Of a stretch of 64,000 nucleotides of DNA, positions 10,341-62,651 are shown piece by piece. Within the stretch, counting starts at the first letter, position 1; each line of letters opens with the position of its first letter. Made by a program: the position numbers and the translations under genes. The notes under the pieces are model-generated. The model searched no databases, had not been told where the DNA came from, and saw only the letters and a program-made list of their open reading frames with translations. This DNA is from a virus: the IMG/VR virus record IMGVR_UViG_3300023184_004051, positions 44,671 to 108,670 of that record; one strand, written 5' to 3'.

Positions 10341-10387
10341 TTGTCGTGAATACTCAACTGTGCTACACTTCCAAAACCGACTAAGGA
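10341..10387 (+). promoter_or_regulatory. Promoter plus ACCGACTAAGG leader box
   Basis: TTGTCG-17-TACACT, then accgactaagga at 10376-10387 merging with the SD. Confidence 0.6.
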
Positions 10388-10394
10388 GTAGCCT

Positions 10395-10679
10395 ATGACC
10401 CGCAGAACACCAGTAGCCGAGGTCGTTCCGAACTACACCCCCACTTGGGTGACAGTATTGGAATGGAACGGCTTGACACCGGGCGACCCCGTGAAAATCA
10501 CGGGCGAGCGAGGGGACTTCACCTTCGCCTCTGTCCACGAACGAGATGGCGAGGTCATCTCTGTCAATGTTCACGGCGGGATGAACGGTCACCAAATGTG
10601 TAGGTCGTTTTATCCCCAAAAGGTCAGCAAAAAGGTCGCCAAACGGTCACGCCTTCGCTCGGCTCCGGCTGGCGACTGA
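10395..10679 (+). CDS. Hypothetical protein with its own promoter inside the tail operon
   Basis: ORF with strong aaggag RBS. Confidence 0.65.
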   Translation: MTRRTPVAEVVPNYTPTWVTVLEWNGLTPGDPVKITGERGDFTFASVHERDGEVISVNVHGGMNGHQMCRSFYPQKVSKKVAKRSRLRSAPAGD

Positions 10680-31250: not shown

Positions 31251-31378
31251 CGTTGGCCCCTGCTTTCTAGTCGGTTTCTACAACAGAAAGAACTGTAGCA
31301 CCCTCTAGTGGACAATGCAAGCCAATCACCAACATTTTTTCCAATGTCAAAACACCCTGAAAAATAAAGGGCATTGGC

Positions 31379-54703: not shown

Positions 54704-55318
54704 ATGTCCGACACTTCCAATACTCCCGAGTTCACCTTGCCGCCCCTTCCCGAAAAGGGTAAGAGGACAGGCAGAAAGACCCTTCTCACCCCAGAGGTCA
54801 CCGATGCCGTTGTAAGGCTTCTCAAAGCCGGAAACTACCTCAGTCAAACAGCACGGTATCTCGGCCTAGACCCAACCACTCTGAACAGTTGGAGGGCAAG
54901 AGGGAACGAACTGATGGCAAGTGGGAGGGAGGATTTGGATGAATACGAACAAATGTTCGTAGACTTCTCCATTGCCGTAGAGAGTGCAAAGGCTGAGGCT
55001 GAAATCAGGGCAGTAGACATCATCCGCAAGGCTATGCCGAAAGATTGGCGAGCAGCAACTTGGTATTTGGAAAGAACCAACAACCGAGATTGGGGAGCAA
55101 CCCAACGGACAGAGGTATCAGGCCCAGATGGAGGGGCTATCCCGATAGATGTGGACAGTGTGTATCGGAAGTTGGAAGCGGTCACCCAAAGGGTCGTTTT
55201 GGAAGCCGAGATTGCATCTCAGCCGACAGAGAGTGCGGAACTACCAGAGAGTGCCGGAGATGGTGAAATAGAGGCCAATGAGCCGGTTGTAGAGAGTGAA
55301 CCGAATAAGGCGTTATGA
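54704..55318 (+). CDS. terS: Terminase small subunit
   Basis: GRKT.LT, HTH, DWRAA.WYLER...WG...E.SGPDGG.I; lies upstream of terL. Confidence 0.75.
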   Translation: MSDTSNTPEFTLPPLPEKGKRTGRKTLLTPEVTDAVVRLLKAGNYLSQTARYLGLDPTTLNSWRARGNELMASGREDLDEYEQMFVDFSIAVESAKAEAEIRAVDIIRKAMPKDWRAATWYLERTNNRDWGATQRTEVSGPDGGAIPIDVDSVYRKLEAVTQRVVLEAEIASQPTESAELPESAGDGEIEANEPVVESEPNKAL

Positions 55319-55447
55319 CCCAATATTGGCGTTATGACAGCCCTGCCCTTACGAGCCTCGGAACTTCCCTTCCCAAAACTCAACCGTCGTTTAGTGAAAT
55401 CCAATAAAAGACTTGACTTTGGATGTGGGTTGCGTTAGCCTGCGTTT

Positions 55448-55584
55448 GGCCGCAACAAGGCGGCCCAAAAACATAGAAGTTCAGGGACTACACACCCTGC
55501 ACCTCTACCGCAAACAGCGAACAAGAGCCGGCCCCGCCACAAGACTGACCTGTCCAAGTCAGAGGGGTCGGCTTGTTGCGTTGT
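55448..55584 (+). ncRNA. Predicted structured small RNA (RNA-C)
   Basis: TTGACT(55413)-17-TAGCCT promoter; three consecutive hairpins; no ORF with an RBS. Confidence 0.45.
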
Positions 55585-55633
55585 AGGGCATTGACGGTTA
55601 GTGAAATGTGCGATTACGCTCTTGGTTGAAGTG

Positions 55634-55716
55634 GCCGCTACAGAAACCCATAGGTCTAAAGGGTCTGCAACCTTTACTGACGAGTAGGGCGCTGCTTCTA
55701 GGGCAACAGCAGACCC
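55634..55716 (+). ncRNA. Hammerhead ribozyme candidate (type II topology with pseudoknot)
   Basis: GAAA 55643-46; stem III ACC/GGT; GTC cleavage triplet 55654-56; stem I TAAAGG/CCTTTA; CTGACGA 55677-83; stem II CTAC/GTAG; loop I GTCTGC can pair with GCAGAC 55709-14. One extra A at 55642. Confidence 0.65.
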
Positions 55717-55718
55717 GC

Positions 55719-55785
55719 CTCCCTTTTGCGACGGCGGGGAGTTTTTGGCTAAGACCTCCGCACTATGCGGGGGTCTTAGTTATTT
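55719..55785 (+). terminator. Two tandem terminator hairpins
   Basis: ctccc...gggag-ttttt, and ctaagacctccgca-c-ta-tgcgggggtcttag-ttattt. Confidence 0.6.
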
Positions 55786-55896
55786 CACTACGATGCGCTC
55801 GCTCGACAAAAAACCCCGAGTTTTGGAAAACTCCGCAGATTTCAGCAGATTTTCGTAGACGAAAAACCCCCCGTTCCAAAACGCAACACGGGCAGA

Positions 55897-56019
55897 CAAA
55901 AACCCCCTCGCAAGCGAAAACAAGGGGGCTTCGTCTTAGTTAGGGAGGGCAACACCGCAGCCGTCGTCGAATGAATACCGACTAAGGAAAAACAGAGAAA
56001 CGACGACTACGGGTTGCCG
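55897..56019 (-). ncRNA. Predicted antisense sRNA-A
   Basis: TTGACA(56049-54)-17-TATGAT(56026-31); long stem with a pyrimidine-rich loop containing TTCCTTAGTCGGTAT; terminator at 55897-55933. Confidence 0.65.
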
Positions 56020-56104
56020 ACTCACATCATAAAGCGAACACAGGTTCGTGTCAAGCGGTATGTGACACCCCCCTCGTAAACTTGTTCCCGGAGGGGTCTG
56101 TCTC

Positions 56105-56198
56105 CGTACAGCGCAAGACCCCCACCGGAGGTCGGTGAGGGTCTTATGCGCCCGACTAAGAGCGAGCGGCGGCGACGAAGTGGGGGCTTCATCACCTG
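56105..56198 (-). ncRNA. Predicted antisense sRNA-B
   Basis: TTGCAT(56227-32)-17-TAGAGT(56204-09); 5' hairpin, linker containing CTTAGTCGG, 3' GC-rich hairpin. Confidence 0.55.
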
Positions 56199-56239
56199 CA
56201 ACTACTCTATCACGGTTGAGTGACCAATGCAAATCGGGC

Positions 56240-56661
56240 AAAGAAAAAAGCCCCACCCCGAAGGGTGAGGCTCTGTCTCGCAAGGCTACTTATCGGATTT
56301 CCCTTTTCCTCAGGCTAACCGCTCTCGCTCCCCACTTCCTAGACAGCGCGGCTACACCTCCTACGAGTGCCACTTCTAGGCTTGCCCGCACACTTGCGCG
56401 ATTGGGCTTTGAGTATTTGTGACCCGATGAGTCTGGCGTGTCACCCTGCTAGCCCACACGCCTTTGGATGGAAGGTCAAGCGCAACCTGCCGGCCCGCTA
56501 TCGCTCGTCATCCTCCGGCGCAGAACGCACATAGGGATTTCCCTTTCTAAGAGGTAGACCCCCCCAAACTGCTCAGCCTTAGAAGCCCGCAGCCCAAAGT
56601 GACACAACACACCCATCGGATTTCGTTGTCAAGGAACTTCGTGAGGTCTACCGCCCCTCAC
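56240..56661 (-). ncRNA. Predicted ~360-420 nt structured RNA of unknown class
   Basis: TTGACT(56691-96)-17-TATGGT promoter (weaker second TTGACA at 56627-32); multiple stems; TTCG-loop terminator with T-run at 56240-56272. Confidence 0.5.
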
Positions 56662-56722
56662 GCAACTACCATACACCACTCTAGTTTGGAAGTCAAGTCA
56701 TTTGGAAAGAATATTTCCAAAC

Positions 56723-56836
56723 TCAACAACCTTCCTCTCGCATCTGGCTCAACAGCATCTCATCTGCGAGTGCTTCCAAGTCCTCGTCGGACATACCCTC
56801 GAAGTTGCTCGCTACCATCTCATCCCAAGTCATCAT
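56723..56836 (-). CDS. 37-aa acidic microprotein
   Basis: MMTWDEMVASNFEGMSDEDLEALADEMLLSQMREEGC; gaggtg RBS; TTGACT(56895-900)-17-TAGAGT promoter. Confidence 0.55.
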   Translation of the reverse strand: MMTWDEMVASNFEGMSDEDLEALADEMLLSQMREEGC

Positions 56837-56965
56837 CAGTCACCTCGTTCTCGTTGTATCTACTACACCACACTCTATCAAGAGGGTGTCACATAGTCAA
56901 GTCATTTTGGAAATATTATTTGGCGGCCCCTTGCTCGACACCACCCCTCCTTGTATTTTGGAAGT

Positions 56966-57145
56966 ATGAGCGCATACAACGGATTAGACACGACCACAGG
57001 AAACATCACCCCACTCTGGCTCTGCGATGAGGCAGGCTGCAATCTCGGATGTGAGGTTGGAACACCAGAGGCCGAAGGCTGGCTTGCCACCGAGGAAGCA
57101 CACTTCTGTCCTACCCACGTCATTTCTCGCTTCGGCAGCAAGTAG
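56966..57145 (+). CDS. Small Cys/His protein
   Basis: CD..GC...GW......HFCP.H. Confidence 0.45.
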   Translation: MSAYNGLDTTTGNITPLWLCDEAGCNLGCEVGTPEAEGWLATEEAHFCPTHVISRFGSK

Positions 57146-57310
57146 CAGCGGCCCAGCAGCGAGTTTTGGAAAACTGGGCCATACCCCCCTATTTTTTGTC
57201 CGAGCAGGGCTACGATAGGGGGATGAAGCATTACCTCCCATACCTCTACTCCTTCTTGGCAGGCTTTGGAACTGCGATGACCGTCGCTTTCTTTCGCCGT
57301 AGGTAGTGAA

Positions 57311-58276
57311 ATGAACCAAATCATCCAGCGGCTTTTGGAAGCCGGCCCCGAACAGAAGCGGCAAATCTTGTCGAGTCTGTCAAAAGACGAGTTAGCAGTC
57401 GTCTACCGTGAGTTGGAAGTCATCGAAAGCAGCCCAACACGGCGTTGGTATTGCCCCCGTGAGGTCTGCAACGGCGAGCCACACGCAGGATTTCACTGGT
57501 GCGACCACCCGATTGACGGGAACCACACGCCATACTGCAAGCACGCTCGAACACCACAGCGCCCGCCGGAGGAAACGGCAGACAAGCCGTGGCTTACTTG
57601 GTTCTTTAGCGGCGGTCGAGGAACGGGAAAGACACGAGCCGGAGCCGAGTGGGTTTTGGATTTGGTATGGAACCAAGGCTACAAGCGCATCGCACTTGTC
57701 GGTCGAACACCAGCCGATGTCCGAGATGTGATGATTTACGGGGATAGTGGAATAATGTCCGTGAGCGACCCCCATCCCCGCCCCACACACGAGCCGACCA
57801 AGCGCAGGCTCATCTGGCCGAATGGGGCGCAAGCCTTCACCTATTCCGCCGCCGCTCCGAGTCAGTTGCGTGGCCCTCAGCACGATGCGGCGTGGTGCGA
57901 TGAGTTGGCCGCTTGGACTGACGCTCCAAAGGGCGATGTTTTGGACACCTCTTGGAACAACCTGATGCTCGGCTTGCGTCTGGGGACAAATCCAAAGGCG
58001 CTCGTCACCACCACTCCAAAACGAGTCAAGTTGGTTCGACAAGTTATGGAGCGTCGAACAACCGTGATTACACAAGGAACGACCTACGAGAACCTTTCCA
58101 ATATGGCCGCTTCCTTCCGTGAGAACGTGCTTGCGGCCTACGAAGGCACACGCATTGGCGAACAGGAGTTGATGGGAACCCTCCTGACAGATGTTGACGG
58201 TGCAATGTGGACTTTGGAAATGCTCGAAAATCGAGCCGAACTTGTCGCAAGCGTGCGAGCGGGGCTAGATGATTAG
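57311..58276 (+). CDS. terL: Terminase large subunit, ATPase half
   Basis: GGRGTGKT, LRGPQ...AWCDE, TTTPK, QEL.G. Confidence 0.85.
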   Translation: MNQIIQRLLEAGPEQKRQILSSLSKDELAVVYRELEVIESSPTRRWYCPREVCNGEPHAGFHWCDHPIDGNHTPYCKHARTPQRPPEETADKPWLTWFFSGGRGTGKTRAGAEWVLDLVWNQGYKRIALVGRTPADVRDVMIYGDSGIMSVSDPHPRPTHEPTKRRLIWPNGAQAFTYSAAAPSQLRGPQHDAAWCDELAAWTDAPKGDVLDTSWNNLMLGLRLGTNPKALVTTTPKRVKLVRQVMERRTTVITQGTTYENLSNMAASFRENVLAAYEGTRIGEQELMGTLLTDVDGAMWTLEMLENRAELVASVRAGLDD

Positions 58277-58898
58277 AGTCACGCCAGACGATTTCACTCG
58301 CATCGTCATAGGGGTTGACCCATCCGTGACTTCAGGCGAGAGCGCAGACGAAACGGGCATCGTTGTAGTTGCAGCCGGCCCACACCAGCCCGATACTTGC
58401 GTGATTGAGACTTGCGACAGCCACGGCTATGTGCTACAGGATGCGACGCTCGCCAAGACCAACAAGAACAGCGTTGACGCTTGGGTGCAACGGGTCATCG
58501 AGGTCTTTGACGATTGGAACGCCAACCTTGTTGTGGTGGAAAGTAATCAGGGCCACGAACTTTTGGAAATGGCGCTGCGGACAAAGCGGCCTGACCTACC
58601 CATCAGCAGACCGAACGCCAAGGAGAACAAGAAGGCACGAGCCGAACCCATTGTGGCGCTCTACGAGCAGGGTCGAGTTCACCACGTTGGCGACGCTGCG
58701 CAGTTCGCTCAGTTGGAGGAACAGATGACGACTTGGGTTCCATCACCAGACGGCAAGCGGCGAGGCAAGTCACCTGACCGCGTTGACGCTCTTGTATGGG
58801 CGCTCGCGGAACTGAACTTGCAGGGCAAGAAATACCGCAAGCAGTTGGAAGCGTTTGCTCCGGTCAACTTCGAGCAACGCAATATGTGGCGTATCTAA
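58269..58898 (+). CDS. terL: Terminase large subunit, nuclease half (separate ORF, +1 frame)
   Basis: RIVIGVDP......DETGI, E.NQG, K..RAEP...LYEQGRVHH, SPDR.DALVWA. Confidence 0.85.
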   Translation: MIRVTPDDFTRIVIGVDPSVTSGESADETGIVVVAAGPHQPDTCVIETCDSHGYVLQDATLAKTNKNSVDAWVQRVIEVFDDWNANLVVVESNQGHELLEMALRTKRPDLPISRPNAKENKKARAEPIVALYEQGRVHHVGDAAQFAQLEEQMTTWVPSPDGKRRGKSPDRVDALVWALAELNLQGKKYRKQLEAFAPVNFEQRNMWRI

Positions 58899-60771: not shown

Positions 60772-60811
60772 TTTCTTTCTGCTTTCTGTAGTCGGTTTGT
60801 TGAGAGGTTGG

Positions 60812-60851: not shown

Positions 60852-61901
60852 TTAGGAACGGCTACCCGTGAGGCGAGTGGCACGACGGTTGAGGAATGAC
60901 TTGGTGTCATTCCCAAGTGAGGTTGCATCCATCAGCGCCGAGAGGGAACCGAAGTTCTCGGAGGCAACCGGCATCGCAACGGCAGACTCAATGAGAGCCA
61001 AGACGAACTTGACCCACGAAGCCACCTTCTCGCCGTTCAGGGTGCCTTGGTGCTGACGGAACTCAATCGTTCCGTACTTGGCGTAAGCGGTCAAGTTGAT
61101 GACCGAGTAGCGACCAAAGTTGCGAGAGGCATCACTGATTTGCGATGGGGTCACCGCAGAGCGCACGGTGGCGTAGTTGCCGTAGCGAGTCCCGACACCC
61201 AAGTTGAGTGGCGAGCAGTAGCCGTTGGTCTGGCGTGACCGAGCGATGATGGTGTTGATGTGACCCTGATTTGCAGAGTAGAGGTCAAGCACCTTCATAA
61301 TGTCAGCACCCGTGAGGTTGTTCATCCCAACGTGAACGTGAAGTCCGCAGGTGCGGTCAACACGACCACCGGCACGAAGCAAGGTTGAGACTGCCAACGA
61401 TGCCTCAGCGAGTCCAGCCTCGCCCTGAAGGATTGGCGACACCAACTCCAAGCCACCGACACCCGTGCCGGTTCCGGTCACCGAGCCATCGGTCACGATT
61501 TTCCAACCGGACATCACACGGTGCGTGTAGCCCTCGTATGAAACCGAGATGCCAACGGCACGGAGAGCGTCAACAGCAACCGTCGGGCGGATGCCAAAGA
61601 ACTCAGCCTCGATGCCGAAGGTGCGGTTGGAAGGCATTGCCCCCGTGACCCGAACGGCAGGTGCAGTCTGAGTTGCCACCGATGCCACAGCACCAGAGGC
61701 AAGGCGGGCGGATGCGGCTCGGCAGGCTTCAGCCGCACCCTGAGCGGCTGCGTAGCCAAGTCGGTTAGCGATTTCGGCGTAAGCCAATCCACGCTGACGA
61801 AGTGCAAGCGCCTCGTTCTGACGAGCGTGCGTTGCGGAGATGGAACGGTTGCCACTGAGGTTGCTGCGGCGGTAGTTCGTTGGTCGGTTCGTTGCAGGCA
61901 T
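60852..61901 (-). CDS. Putative amidoligase (COOH-NH2 ligase) with N-terminal HTH
   Basis: RTFGIE.E, W....DGS, ELVSP.L, CGLHVH, RY...NL, TIEFR.H.GT. Confidence 0.85.
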   Translation of the reverse strand: MPATNRPTNYRRSNLSGNRSISATHARQNEALALRQRGLAYAEIANRLGYAAAQGAAEACRAASARLASGAVASVATQTAPAVRVTGAMPSNRTFGIEAEFFGIRPTVAVDALRAVGISVSYEGYTHRVMSGWKIVTDGSVTGTGTGVGGLELVSPILQGEAGLAEASLAVSTLLRAGGRVDRTCGLHVHVGMNNLTGADIMKVLDLYSANQGHINTIIARSRQTNGYCSPLNLGVGTRYGNYATVRSAVTPSQISDASRNFGRYSVINLTAYAKYGTIEFRQHQGTLNGEKVASWVKFVLALIESAVAMPVASENFGSLSALMDATSLGNDTKSFLNRRATRLTGSRS

Positions 61902-61908
61902 CTTGCCC

Positions 61909-62194
61909 TCCTTAGTCGGTGTTGGTATTTCCCAACAACAAGAACGATAATGGGGTTGAGTCCAAAAGTCAAGTCAATGTCAAAAAAAGTTTGTCCCCGA
62001 TATCCCTTGCAAATAAAGGGCTTTCGCCGTGTGTCCAAAAATCTCTAAAAAAAACTTTGGCGAAGTCAGCCTGCGGGCAACGAAAAAACGACACCTCAAA
62101 ACAGGCTCTAAAACTTTCTTGCGAAATGACTTGACAACTAAACACGGGTAGTGCATAATGACTACATCGCAACAAGGCGATACCGACTAAGGAA
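61909..62194. promoter_or_regulatory. Divergent promoter region; both leaders carry ACCGACTAAGGA
   Basis: Minus strand: TTGACT-17-TATCGT, box at 61909-61920. Plus strand: TTGACA-18-CATAAT, box at 62180-62194. Confidence 0.65.
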
Positions 62195-62201
62195 GTGCAG
62201 T

Positions 62202-62651
62202 ATGACCGCAACCACCACCCGCCAGCAACGGCTCATCACTTGGATTGAGCGTGTGTCCGGCAAGCCGTGTGACCTCTCAATCGTTGAGGGAAAGATGGCA
62301 TCATTCAACGAGAGCCGTTTGCGCTTTCGCATTGAGCAGTTGACCGGCAAGAAGTTCGTGTTCGGCTTCGACCCAACCGACGACTCAATGGCCGTTGACA
62401 AGCCCAACACCTACGATTGGTTCCTCTCCGACACGGACATCGTGATGGAGTGGACTGACGAGGATTTGGAACTTGCCACCGACTGCGATGGCATTGACCA
62501 CTTCCACACGGTCAACATCGTGACCGACCCCTACGGTTGGACACGACAGACTTGGGAATGCGAGAACGCCGATGGCGACATCACCGAATACTCACAAATC
62601 TCGTTGGACTTCGTTCACGAGTTGGCTTACATCGTGGGAGGTGGCTTCTAA
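62202..62651 (+). CDS. Hypothetical acidic protein
   Basis: ORF following the promoter and RBS. Confidence 0.6.
   Translation: MTATTTRQQRLITWIERVSGKPCDLSIVEGKMASFNESRLRFRIEQLTGKKFVFGFDPTDDSMAVDKPNTYDWFLSDTDIVMEWTDEDLELATDCDGIDHFHTVNIVTDPYGWTRQTWECENADGDITEYSQISLDFVHELAYIVGGGF

What the first reader, a model, noticed from the sequence alone, without database searches (positions are those of the whole stretch)
55897..56054. Phage sRNA-A whose loop is antisense to a leader/RBS box shared by several phage genes
Seen: a near-consensus minus-strand promoter (TTGACA-17-TATGAT), a ~123 nt non-coding unit and a terminator. The unit folds into an ~18-bp stem that presents a ~34-nt loop containing UUCCUUAGUCGGUAU. 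That loop is the exact reverse complement of ATACCGACTAAGGAA (15/15) in the leader of the 62202 gene, and of ACCGACTAAGGA (12/12) in the leaders of the amidoligase (61909-61920) and the 10395 gene (10376-10387). Shorter matches precede the gam operon (31267-31275), the GATase (60789-60796) and the 48355 gene, and one overlaps the start of the 59684 gene. In the best targets the box runs into the Shine-Dalgarno sequence. A second sRNA segment (UUGCCCUCC) matches the GGAGGGCAA just before the amidoligase ATG. Inference: one trans-acting phage RNA co-ordinately blocks translation of a dispersed regulon. I know of no described phage system built this way.
Basis: partly seen in the sequence, partly recalled or inferred. 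Interest (0 to 1): 0.9.

Follow-up and report, generated by a model that had tools for sequence, protein, structure and literature searches.

The report
Phage small RNAs mirroring early-gene leaders
An uncultured freshwater phage carries two conserved small-RNA genes whose exposed segments mirror a 12-base tag placed over the ribosome-binding site of eight of its early genes, so the RNAs probably switch those genes off together, though no transcript has been seen.

Summary

**The RNA gene.** sRNA-A has an 11/12 sigma70-type promoter on the minus strand. It has a 20-bp stem with a ~30-nt open loop (z = -7.2) and a terminator.

**The box.** ACCGACTAAGGA occurs 8 times; about 0.013 are expected.
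- Seven copies lie 7-9 nt before an ATG, mostly behind early-type promoters.
- The eighth is the sRNA-A loop, in antisense.
- An eighth leader carries a 9-nt version.

**Predicted targets.** With accessibility included, the eight leaders score -14 to -20 kcal/mol. The median of 135 start regions is -4.

**Conservation.** Two related phages (L083, L084; about 73% identical here) keep promoter, stem and loop. The two longest invariant runs in the island are the anti-box of sRNA-A (13 nt) and that of neighbouring sRNA-B (20 nt). In both relatives a tRNA-Ala follows sRNA-A on the same strand.

**Verdict.** Most likely a trans-acting antisense RNA pair that blocks translation of a dispersed early regulon. 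It works like the P1/P7 c4 RNA but is not a member of that family.

**Limits.** No expression data exist. Stem covariation is weak with three sequences. Distant relatives have a related box but no visible antisense RNA. The scan noted similar candidates on other phage DNA.

The parts
56026..56054 (-). sRNA-A promoter, TTGACA-17-TATGAT
   Evidence: 11 of 12 matches. Among the four best sigma70-type sites in the genome. Conserved at the same place in L083 (TTGACG-18-TATGCT) and L084 (TTGACG-18-TAGGAT).
55897..56020 (-). Predicted sRNA-A transcript, about 120-124 nt; the start is inferred at 56018-56022
   Evidence: Fold of -57.5 kcal/mol, z = -7.16. No Rfam family and no tRNA. The overlapping minus-strand ORF (55936-56283) is not kept in L083.
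55948..56018 (-). Stem-loop 1: a 20-bp stem (arms 55999-56018 and 55948-55968) closing a ~30-nt loop
   Evidence: The same architecture appears in the window, L083 and L084. 92.6% of cells are paired against 26-63% when the partners are slid. There are 2 double and 6 one-sided compatible changes, which is not significant with 3 sequences. Covariance model R1 finds only these three loci.
55975..55989 (-). Anti-box in the loop (UUCCUUAGUCGGUAU); the core 12-mer is at 55977-55988
   Evidence: Exact complement of the leader box. It costs only 3.1-3.6 kcal/mol to open. The 13 nt TCCTTAGTCGGTA form the second-longest invariant run in the three-phage island alignment.
55933..55947 (-). Single-stranded linker with a second anti-SD-like motif, CCCUCCCUAAC
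   Evidence: Unpaired in the fold. CUCCCUAAC is kept in L083, twice. It has no convincing set of targets.
55897..55932 (-). Terminator of sRNA-A: 13-bp GC-rich hairpin plus U5
   Evidence: The homologous hairpin in L083 is scored as terminator-like.
55800..55896 (-). Two further minus-strand terminator-like hairpins; relatives carry tRNA-Ala(UGC) at this position
   Evidence: Sequence read. tRNA-Ala lies at L083 1847-1920(-) and L084 871-946(-). The window has no tRNA.
55700..55785 (+). Two plus-strand terminator hairpins, so transcription from the terS side should stop before sRNA-A
   Evidence: Read directly from the sequence: CCCGCC..GGCGGG followed by TTTTT, and TAAGACC..GGTCTTA followed by a T-rich tail.
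56204..56232 (-). sRNA-B promoter, TTGCAT-17-TAGAGT, with the early-class spacer motif ACTCAACC
   Evidence: The L083 homologue is TTGACT-17-TAAAGT with a TG extension.
56105..56199 (-). Predicted sRNA-B: 5' hairpin, small hairpin presenting CUCUUAGUCGG, then a 3' hairpin
   Evidence: Folds of -52 to -56 kcal/mol in the three phages. The minus-strand RNA is 8-18 kcal/mol more stable than the plus-strand RNA in all three. Predicted pairing with the box leaders is -7 to -13 kcal/mol.
56149..56168 (-). sRNA-B conserved core (CGCUCGCUCUUAGUCGGGCG), containing the 9-nt anti-box at 56152-56160
   Evidence: Longest invariant run (20 nt) in the 448-column island alignment of three phages, where 58% of columns are invariant overall.
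62180..62194 (+). Target box in the leader of gene 62202-62651 (15/15 match), behind promoter TTGACA-17-CATAAT
   Evidence: Predicted interaction -19.7 kcal/mol, covering -20 to +1. The box is invariant in L083 and L041.
61909..61920 (-). Target box in the leader of the amidoligase gene (60852-61901)
   Evidence: Predicted interaction -13.7 kcal/mol. The box is invariant in L083 and L041.
10376..10387 (+). Target box in the leader of the DUF7246 gene (10395-10679)
   Evidence: Predicted interaction -14.7 kcal/mol.

Best explanation
sRNA-A is a real, independently transcribed small RNA of about 120 nt, read from the minus strand by host RNA polymerase. Its neighbour sRNA-B appears to work the same way.

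**Proposed mechanism.** The long stem holds open a ~30-nt loop. The core of that loop, UCCUUAGUCGGU, is the last bases of the 16S anti-Shine-Dalgarno sequence extended by GUCGGU. The loop pairs with ACCGACUAAGGA(G/A), a tag that sits 7-9 nt before the start codon of eight phage genes. Most of these genes lie behind early-type sigma70-like promoters. Pairing covers about -21 to -2 of the mRNA, hides the ribosome-binding site and blocks initiation. It may also expose the mRNA to RNase III or RNase E. The extra hexamer restricts the effect to tagged mRNAs, so one RNA, or the A+B pair, turns down a dispersed early regulon as it accumulates.

**Shown by computation:** promoter, fold, terminator, conservation, exact complementarity, accessibility and target ranking.

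**Inferred:** transcription itself, the direction of the effect (repression), the timing, and any need for Hfq or RNases.
For: - Promoter at 11 of 12 matches, among the top four in the genome.
- Fold with z = -7.2 and a terminator.
- No Rfam family, no tRNA and no conserved ORF.
- Eight exact copies of the 12-mer against about 0.013 expected; seven lie at a fixed 7-9 nt from an ATG.
- The distance from the -10 hexamer to the box varies from 6 to 25 nt (sequences), so the box is tied to translation rather than to transcription.
- Accessibility-corrected energies of -13.7 to -19.7 kcal/mol for the eight leaders. The background of 135 start regions has median -4.1 and sd 3.6. The five box leaders in that set rank 1-5.
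- Homologues in L083 and L084 keep promoter, stem and loop.
- The anti-boxes of sRNA-B (20 nt) and sRNA-A (13 nt) are the two longest invariant runs in an island that is 58% invariant overall.
- tRNA-Ala lies directly downstream on the same strand in both relatives, with no sigma70-type site called between sRNA-A and the tRNA in L083 or L084. This argues for minus-strand transcription.
- G-U pairs make the minus-strand RNA more stable than the plus-strand RNA. This holds for sRNA-B in all three phages and for sRNA-A in the window.
- The boxes are invariant in the orthologous leaders of L083 and L041, while the 5' leader hairpins change their sequence.
Against: - No expression data.
- Stem covariation is not statistically significant with three sequences; 136 of 500 shuffles do as well.
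- For L083 and L084 the sRNA-A stem is about equally stable on either strand.
- Box and anti-box are co-conserved, but no co-variation between them has been seen.
- More distant relatives carry a related box (AACTGAC + SD) on 10 or more leaders, yet no antisense copy in an RNA-like unit was found in 21-46 kb of their DNA. The box therefore probably has a function of its own.
- sRNA-B, by its promoter motif, and sRNA-A, by its consensus host-type promoter, would be made at the same time as their targets. A simple off-switch therefore needs accumulation or a difference in stability.
Confidence: 0.55

Rival explanations
1. The sRNAs are real, but their main role lies elsewhere. They could block the tagged early mRNAs of an incoming related phage (RNA-based superinfection exclusion or heteroimmunity). 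They could also act on host mRNAs or sequester Shine-Dalgarno-rich RNAs in general.
For: - Both RNAs have host-type promoters that would fire from the start of infection.
- The loop is pyrimidine-rich and anti-SD-like, and it gives moderate scores with several untagged start regions.
- The box differs between clades, ACCGAC against AACTGAC, as an immunity specificity would.
- c4 RNA mediates P1/P7 heteroimmunity (PMC12197685).
Against: - The best predicted targets are the phage's own eight leaders, by a wide margin.
- No integrase or resolvase is present, so there is no sign of a resident prophage state; the record is 87% complete.
- The host genome is unknown, so host targets could not be scored.
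Confidence: 0.2
2. The box is a site for a protein, or for the ribosome itself: a translational enhancer, a repressor or RNase site, or a DNA operator of the 'stoperator' kind. On this view the copies in the island are plus-strand decoys or DNA sites, not antisense RNA seeds.
For: - A related box precedes the SD in distant relatives that show no antisense RNA.
- The hairpin would display the box in a loop on the plus strand as well.
- The L084 stem is equally stable on both strands.
Against: - No plus-strand promoter faces the unit, and two plus-strand terminators lie upstream of it.
- Promoters, terminators and the tRNA are all minus-strand and conserved.
- No ORF follows the plus-strand box in the three phages.
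- The sRNA-B hairpins need G-U pairs that would be A-C mismatches on the plus strand.
- The box keeps register with the ATG, not with the promoter.
Confidence: 0.12
3. The loop match is a relic. An inverted copy of a leader was captured in a structured RNA or terminator region and has no regulatory role.
For: - Beyond the box, the plus strand of the loop resembles a leader: GGAAAAACAGAG against GGAGACAGCAATG.
- Phage intergenic regions are mosaic, and the tRNA has been lost from this spot in the window.
Against: - A relic would decay, yet the anti-boxes are the two most conserved stretches of the island across three phages that are 72-75% identical here.
- Two unrelated scaffolds carry the same 9-nt seed in the same orientation.
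Confidence: 0.05

Closest known systems
c4 antisense RNA of phages P1/P7, and the related P4 CI RNA (Rfam C4 family)
   Same: - A phage-encoded small RNA whose function depends on its fold.
- Complementary segments are displayed in loops.
- It binds around the ribosome-binding site of phage mRNA and blocks translation (PMC12197685).
- In the relatives, sRNA-A lies directly upstream of a tRNA, so RNase P could set its 3' end. Processing of c4/CI by RNase P is stated from my own knowledge.
   Different: - No match to the Rfam C4 model.
- It has its own promoter instead of being cut from the target operon's leader.
- It has one loop seed per RNA.
- Its eight or so targets are scattered over the genome, rather than one operon (ant).
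- There is no sign of lysogeny.
Bacterial trans-encoded sRNAs with one conserved seed and many targets, such as RybB or GcvB, and the C-rich loop sRNAs of Staphylococcus such as RsaE and RNAIII (own knowledge)
   Same: - Own promoter and Rho-independent terminator.
- A short, invariant seed.
- Pairing at Shine-Dalgarno regions of several mRNAs.
- The seed is shown in a hairpin loop, as in the staphylococcal RNAs.
   Different: - Here the regulon is the phage's own early genes.
- The targets share an exact 12-nt tag, whereas bacterial seeds match their targets imperfectly.
- Hfq dependence is unknown.
T4 RegB endoribonuclease and RegA repressor, which shut off early genes at their ribosome-binding sites (review PMC3014915, listed but not read; the mechanism is from my own knowledge)
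   Same: Post-transcriptional shut-off of a set of early phage mRNAs, acting at or in the Shine-Dalgarno sequence.
   Different: T4 uses proteins. Here the proposed effector is RNA, and specificity comes from a hexamer next to the SD.
Phage sRNAs VpdS (VP882) and PreS (lambda) (PMC12197685)
   Same: Trans-acting phage sRNAs that change mRNA levels or translation during the lytic cycle.
   Different: According to that review, VpdS and PreS need Hfq, PreS acts on the host gene dnaN, and VpdS affects both phage and host mRNAs. Neither is described as acting on a tagged regulon of the phage's own early genes.

Membership tests
Rfam C4 antisense RNA family (P1/P7 c4, P4 CI) | Match to the family's covariance model | tested here: not met
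   No hit at gathering threshold over the whole window. No C4 hit at E <= 10 over 55200-57400.
Rfam C4 antisense RNA family (P1/P7 c4, P4 CI) | The RNA is cut from the leader of the operon it controls; its targets lie in that same transcript | tested here: not met
   It has its own promoter and terminator. Its targets are at eight dispersed loci.
Rfam C4 antisense RNA family (P1/P7 c4, P4 CI) | Loop-displayed segments complementary to a ribosome-binding region | tested here: met
   The anti-box lies in an open loop. Pairing covers -21 to -2 of the leaders.
Trans-encoded base-pairing sRNA | Independent promoter and intrinsic terminator flanking a non-coding unit | tested here: met
   These are sequence predictions only.
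Trans-encoded base-pairing sRNA | A conserved, accessible seed complementary to several mRNAs encoded elsewhere | tested here: met
Trans-encoded base-pairing sRNA | The RNA is expressed and changes target translation or stability | not testable with these tools
The phage is uncultured.
Trans-encoded base-pairing sRNA | Structure supported by covariation | tested here: inconclusive
   The helix is kept in 92.6% of cells and has 2 compensatory pairs. With 3 sequences the shuffles do as well in 136 of 500 cases.
tRNA / tmRNA | Cloverleaf recognised by ARAGORN | tested here: not met
   No tRNA or tmRNA anywhere in the window.
DNA operator array ('stoperator'-like) | Sites placed relative to promoters or transcription units, not to start codons | tested here: not met
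   The box-to-ATG distance is 7-9 nt in all 7 copies. The distance from the -10 hexamer to the box is 6-25 nt, and two boxes have no promoter.

The most novel reading that the evidence does not exclude
The tag and the two sRNAs together form an RNA 'address code' for a whole temporal class of phage genes. Any mRNA carrying ACCGACUAAGGA next to its start codon is silenced by the A/B pair. Related phage clades use different tags (ACCGAC against AACTGAC). The same RNAs could then shut off the phage's own early genes on schedule and also exclude incoming phages that share the tag. That would be RNA-based, clade-specific translational immunity in a virulent phage.
Probability: 0.15. Interest if true: 0.85.

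Novelty: new variant of a known kind. Interest (0 to 1): 0.62.

Why it matters
Shut-off of early genes in lytic phages is known mainly through proteins, such as T4 RegB and RegA. Known phage sRNAs act on one operon or on host genes.

An RNA, or an RNA pair, that silences a scattered set of the phage's own early genes through a shared 12-base leader tag would be a simple, programmable timing device. It can be tested directly with leader-reporter fusions and seed and box swap mutants in a laboratory host.

This scan has noted similar anti-leader RNA candidates in other uncultured phages. The arrangement may therefore be common and overlooked.

Tried and rejected
**Searches that found nothing useful**
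- Rfam at gathering and at permissive thresholds: nothing credible.
- INPHARED by DNA, and IMG/VR by the terS protein and by exact loop patterns: no close relative.
- The loop pattern in GTDB genomes gave three hits in unrelated bacteria. They match only the loop and lack the stem, so I treat them as chance.
- Model R1 over 56 related loci (0.88 Mb) found only the window, L083 and L084.

**Search for an equivalent RNA in distant relatives**
- Relatives whose leaders carry AACTGAC(C/T) are L005, L006 (record G005, 46 kb), L007, L095, L098 and L100. Nearly every copy was a sense leader or lay in coding sequence.
- The few non-coding copies (L095 6094, L092 3839, L100 6027, G005 23731 and 14868/14935) did not sit in a promoter-hairpin-terminator unit.
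- L088 has no repeated box at all.

**Methods that did not fit**
- RNAcofold cannot place a target inside a hairpin loop, so it paired the linker instead. I replaced it with a duplex-plus-opening-energy calculation.

**Ideas dropped**
- A second seed in the linker (CUCCCUAAC): only one other genomic complement, and not at a gene start.
- A plus-strand micro-ORF after the box: a 9-codon ORF in L083 only, with a 14-nt spacing, and absent from the window and L084 (read).

- Metagenome records could not be searched whole.

Full report
**Setting.** The window is the last 64 kb of a 108,670-bp IMG/VR virus record (offset 44,670; linear; CheckV completeness 87%). The finding lies in a 2-kb non-coding island. 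On one side is the small terminase gene (54704-55318). On the other is a large terminase split into two ORFs (57311-58276 and 58269-58898). No integrase or resolvase is present. Relatives come from freshwater lake metagenomes.

**The unit itself.** The minus strand carries TTGACA-17-TATGAT at 56054..56026, with 11 of 12 matches. Only three other sites in the genome are as good. The RNA from about 56020 to 55897 folds at -57.5 kcal/mol. Shuffled sequences average -32.4, giving z = -7.16, and none of 200 does as well. The fold has a 20-bp stem with one bulge, a ~30-nt loop, a 15-nt unpaired linker and a 13-bp GC-rich hairpin followed by U5. Two more terminator-like hairpins follow at 55800-55896. 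On the plus strand, two terminator hairpins at about 55700-55785 face the other way. The region is therefore a convergent termination zone, and transcripts coming from terS should stop before the unit. Rfam gives nothing at gathering or at permissive thresholds, and ARAGORN finds no tRNA. A 115-codon minus-strand ORF overlaps the unit, but it is not kept in the relative L083.

**The box.** ACCGACTAAGGA occurs four times in the window and eight times in the genome. About 0.013 copies are expected in 217 kb of two-stranded sequence. Seven copies lie 7-9 nt upstream of an ATG that opens an ORF of 82-349 codons. The eighth is the plus-strand image of the sRNA-A loop. One more leader (genome 6632, minus strand) has CGACTAAGG.

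Five tagged leaders follow sigma70-like promoters that one search shows to share the spacer motif ACT[AC]AAC; some also carry an upstream ATGAC. A sixth (genome 11505) follows TTGACA-18-TAGAAT without that motif. Two lie inside operons.

The box includes the SD sequence UAAGGAG, which pairs with the very 3' end of 16S rRNA (my own knowledge), plus the hexamer ACCGAC. The distance to the ATG is fixed. The distance from the -10 hexamer ranges from 6 to 25 nt. This ties the box to translation rather than to transcription.

Several leaders begin with a small hairpin whose stem sequence differs between genes and between phages. Its loop is often AACAA(A/G/T).

The tagged genes encode the following:
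- a DnaQ-like exonuclease;
- an amidoligase;
- a DUF7246 protein;
- a DUF6011 protein;
- four proteins with no Pfam family (82-300 aa).

**Predicted pairing.** RNAcofold cannot model pairing inside a loop. I therefore summed duplex energy and the opening energies of both partners. The sRNA loop costs only 3.1-3.6 kcal/mol to open. The eight leaders give -13.7 to -19.7 kcal/mol, over about -21 to -2 (or +1) relative to the start codon. A crude set of 135 start regions has a median of -4.1 and an sd of 3.6. The five tagged leaders in that set rank 1 to 5.

**Relatives.** The TerL N-terminal protein has many metagenomic homologues. Two JGI contigs are close enough to align across the island: L083 (93% TerL identity) and L084 (90%). 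Their DNA identity in the island is 72-75%.

Both keep the minus-strand promoter at the same place (TTGACG-18-TATGCT and TTGACG-18-TAGGAT). Both keep the long stem and the loop. Their loops read CUCCUUAGUCGGUA, a 14-nt complement of UACCGACUAAGGAG.

The helix is paired in 92.6% of cells, against 26-63% when partners are slid. It has two double compensatory changes and six one-sided compatible changes. With three sequences this is not significant: 136 of 500 shuffles do as well.

The strongest comparative result concerns invariant runs. In the 448 aligned columns of the island, 58% are invariant. The two longest invariant runs are CGCTCGCTCTTAGTCGGGCG (20 nt, in sRNA-B) and TCCTTAGTCGGTA (13 nt, in the sRNA-A loop). 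Both contain the same 9-nt anti-box.

The orthologous leaders in L083 and L041 keep the box exactly, while the leader hairpin stems change.

**Which strand.** All promoters and terminators of the units are minus-strand, and they are conserved. In L083 and L084 a tRNA-Ala(UGC) lies about 25 nt after the sRNA-A terminator-like hairpin, on the same strand. The sigma70 scans of L083 and L084 call no site between sRNA-A and the tRNA. Minus-strand transcription through sRNA-A is therefore needed to express that tRNA. The window phage has lost the tRNA but kept sRNA-A, so the RNA is more than a tRNA leader.

G-U pairs make the minus-strand RNA more stable than the plus-strand RNA:
- for sRNA-B in all three phages (-52 to -56 against -38 to -43 kcal/mol);
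- for sRNA-A in the window (-36.2 against -26.6).

For L083 and L084 the sRNA-A stem is nearly symmetric. No conserved ORF follows the plus-strand box.

**sRNA-B.** This RNA, noted separately by the scan, starts from a promoter of the early class (56232..56204). It has a 5' hairpin whose sequence differs between the phages, a small hairpin that presents CUCUUAGUCGG, and a 3' hairpin. Predicted pairing with the tagged leaders is weaker, at -7 to -13 kcal/mol.

**What limits the claim.**
- No expression data could be obtained.
- The closest ENA relatives could not be fetched.
- Box and anti-box are co-conserved, but they have not been seen to change together.
- More distant relatives (TerL identity 72-80%) have a different but related leader box, (C)AACTGAC(C/T) followed by the SD. 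It occurs on 10 or more leaders in L007 and in the 46-kb record of L006.
- In those relatives I found no promoter-hairpin-terminator unit displaying its complement. Model R1 finds no homologue there either.
- The box family therefore seems older than sRNA-A and sRNA-B and probably has a role of its own, for example in translation efficiency. The RNAs may be a clade-specific layer that exploits it. Only 21-46 kb of genomes of about 110-130 kb could be read, so absence is not shown.

**Mechanism and comparison.** The most likely reading is a trans-acting antisense RNA, or RNA pair, that competes with the 30S subunit for tagged leaders and so turns down a dispersed early regulon (confidence 0.55).

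Both RNAs have host-type promoters. A timed shut-off would therefore depend on accumulation of stable, structured RNA over short-lived mRNAs. That step is inference.

The closest known system is the c4 RNA of P1/P7, which uses loop-displayed antisense segments covering a ribosome-binding site (PMC12197685). sRNA-A fails the C4 family tests on three counts: the covariance model, processing from the target operon, and a single-operon target. It therefore works like c4 without being a member of that family. A 2025 review of phage sRNAs lists no RNA that controls a tagged set of the phage's own early genes (PMC12197685).

The scan has recorded similar candidates in other uncultured phage genomes, and none has been tested experimentally. 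These are AI notes and do not count as independent support.

Noticed in passing
L083 1847-1920 (-); L084 871-946 (-); window 55800-55896: Both close relatives carry tRNA-Ala(UGC) directly after sRNA-A on the same strand. The window phage has two terminator-like hairpins there and no tRNA anywhere in 64 kb.
   Followed up: partly
Genome 7511(-), 9901(-), 15762(+), 92064(+); window 56221(-), 61961(-), 62137(+): The early-type promoters share more than the two hexamers. The spacer holds ACT[AC]AAC(C/G)C, and ATGAC often sits just before the -35 hexamer. The same pattern appears in relatives, for example GTCACACAACCCTGCTATAGT. This suggests a distinct promoter class or an extra factor.
   Followed up: partly
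Leaders at window 61921-61945(-) and 62158-62181(+); L083 7494(-) and 7757(+); L041 4062(-) and 4326(+): Tagged leaders start with a short hairpin. Its stem differs between genes and phages (GUUGG/CCAAC, AUCGC/GCGAU, GUCGC/GCGAC, GUGGG/CCCAC). Its loop is usually AACAA(A/G/T), an A-R-N-like motif of the kind bound by the distal face of Hfq (own knowledge).
   Followed up: no
Window 56236-56340 (-) and upstream to about 56696: A further minus-strand non-coding stretch is well conserved in L083 and L084 (GGAAGTTGGGAGCGAAGGCGGTTAGCC..CCGATAAGTAG) and ends in a strong terminator at 56274..56247. L084 has an insertion of about 400 bp here, carrying its own promoter and a small ORF.
   Followed up: no
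L004-L025; window e.g. 55393(+), 55600(+), 55782(-): The abundant octamer family T-N-N-T-G-R-A-A is shared by the relatives, but its core differs from phage to phage: TAGTGAAATC, CAGTGAAATCC, TACTGAAATC, TGCTGAAATC, TAGTGGAATC, TAGTTTGGAA. This looks like a phage-specific signal that co-evolves with a phage factor.
   Followed up: no
Window 57311-58276 and 58269-58898; proteins P0002-P0064: The split of TerL into an N-terminal protein of about 315-325 aa is shared by dozens of metagenomic relatives. Others have a fused TerL of about 450-560 aa, and some of those carry intein or homing-endonuclease domains (PF14890, PF07591, PF05204, PF14528).
   Followed up: no
L024 / L091 10930-14560 (-): A more distant relative repeats (C)AAAGAAAATC(C) 12-17 times just upstream of consecutive small genes downstream of terL. 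This is a different repeated pre-gene motif in the same phage group.
   Followed up: no
Window 55591-55746: The permissive Rfam scan of 55200-57400 (E <= 10) returned no hammerhead family hit for the hammerhead candidate noted by the scan.
   Followed up: partly
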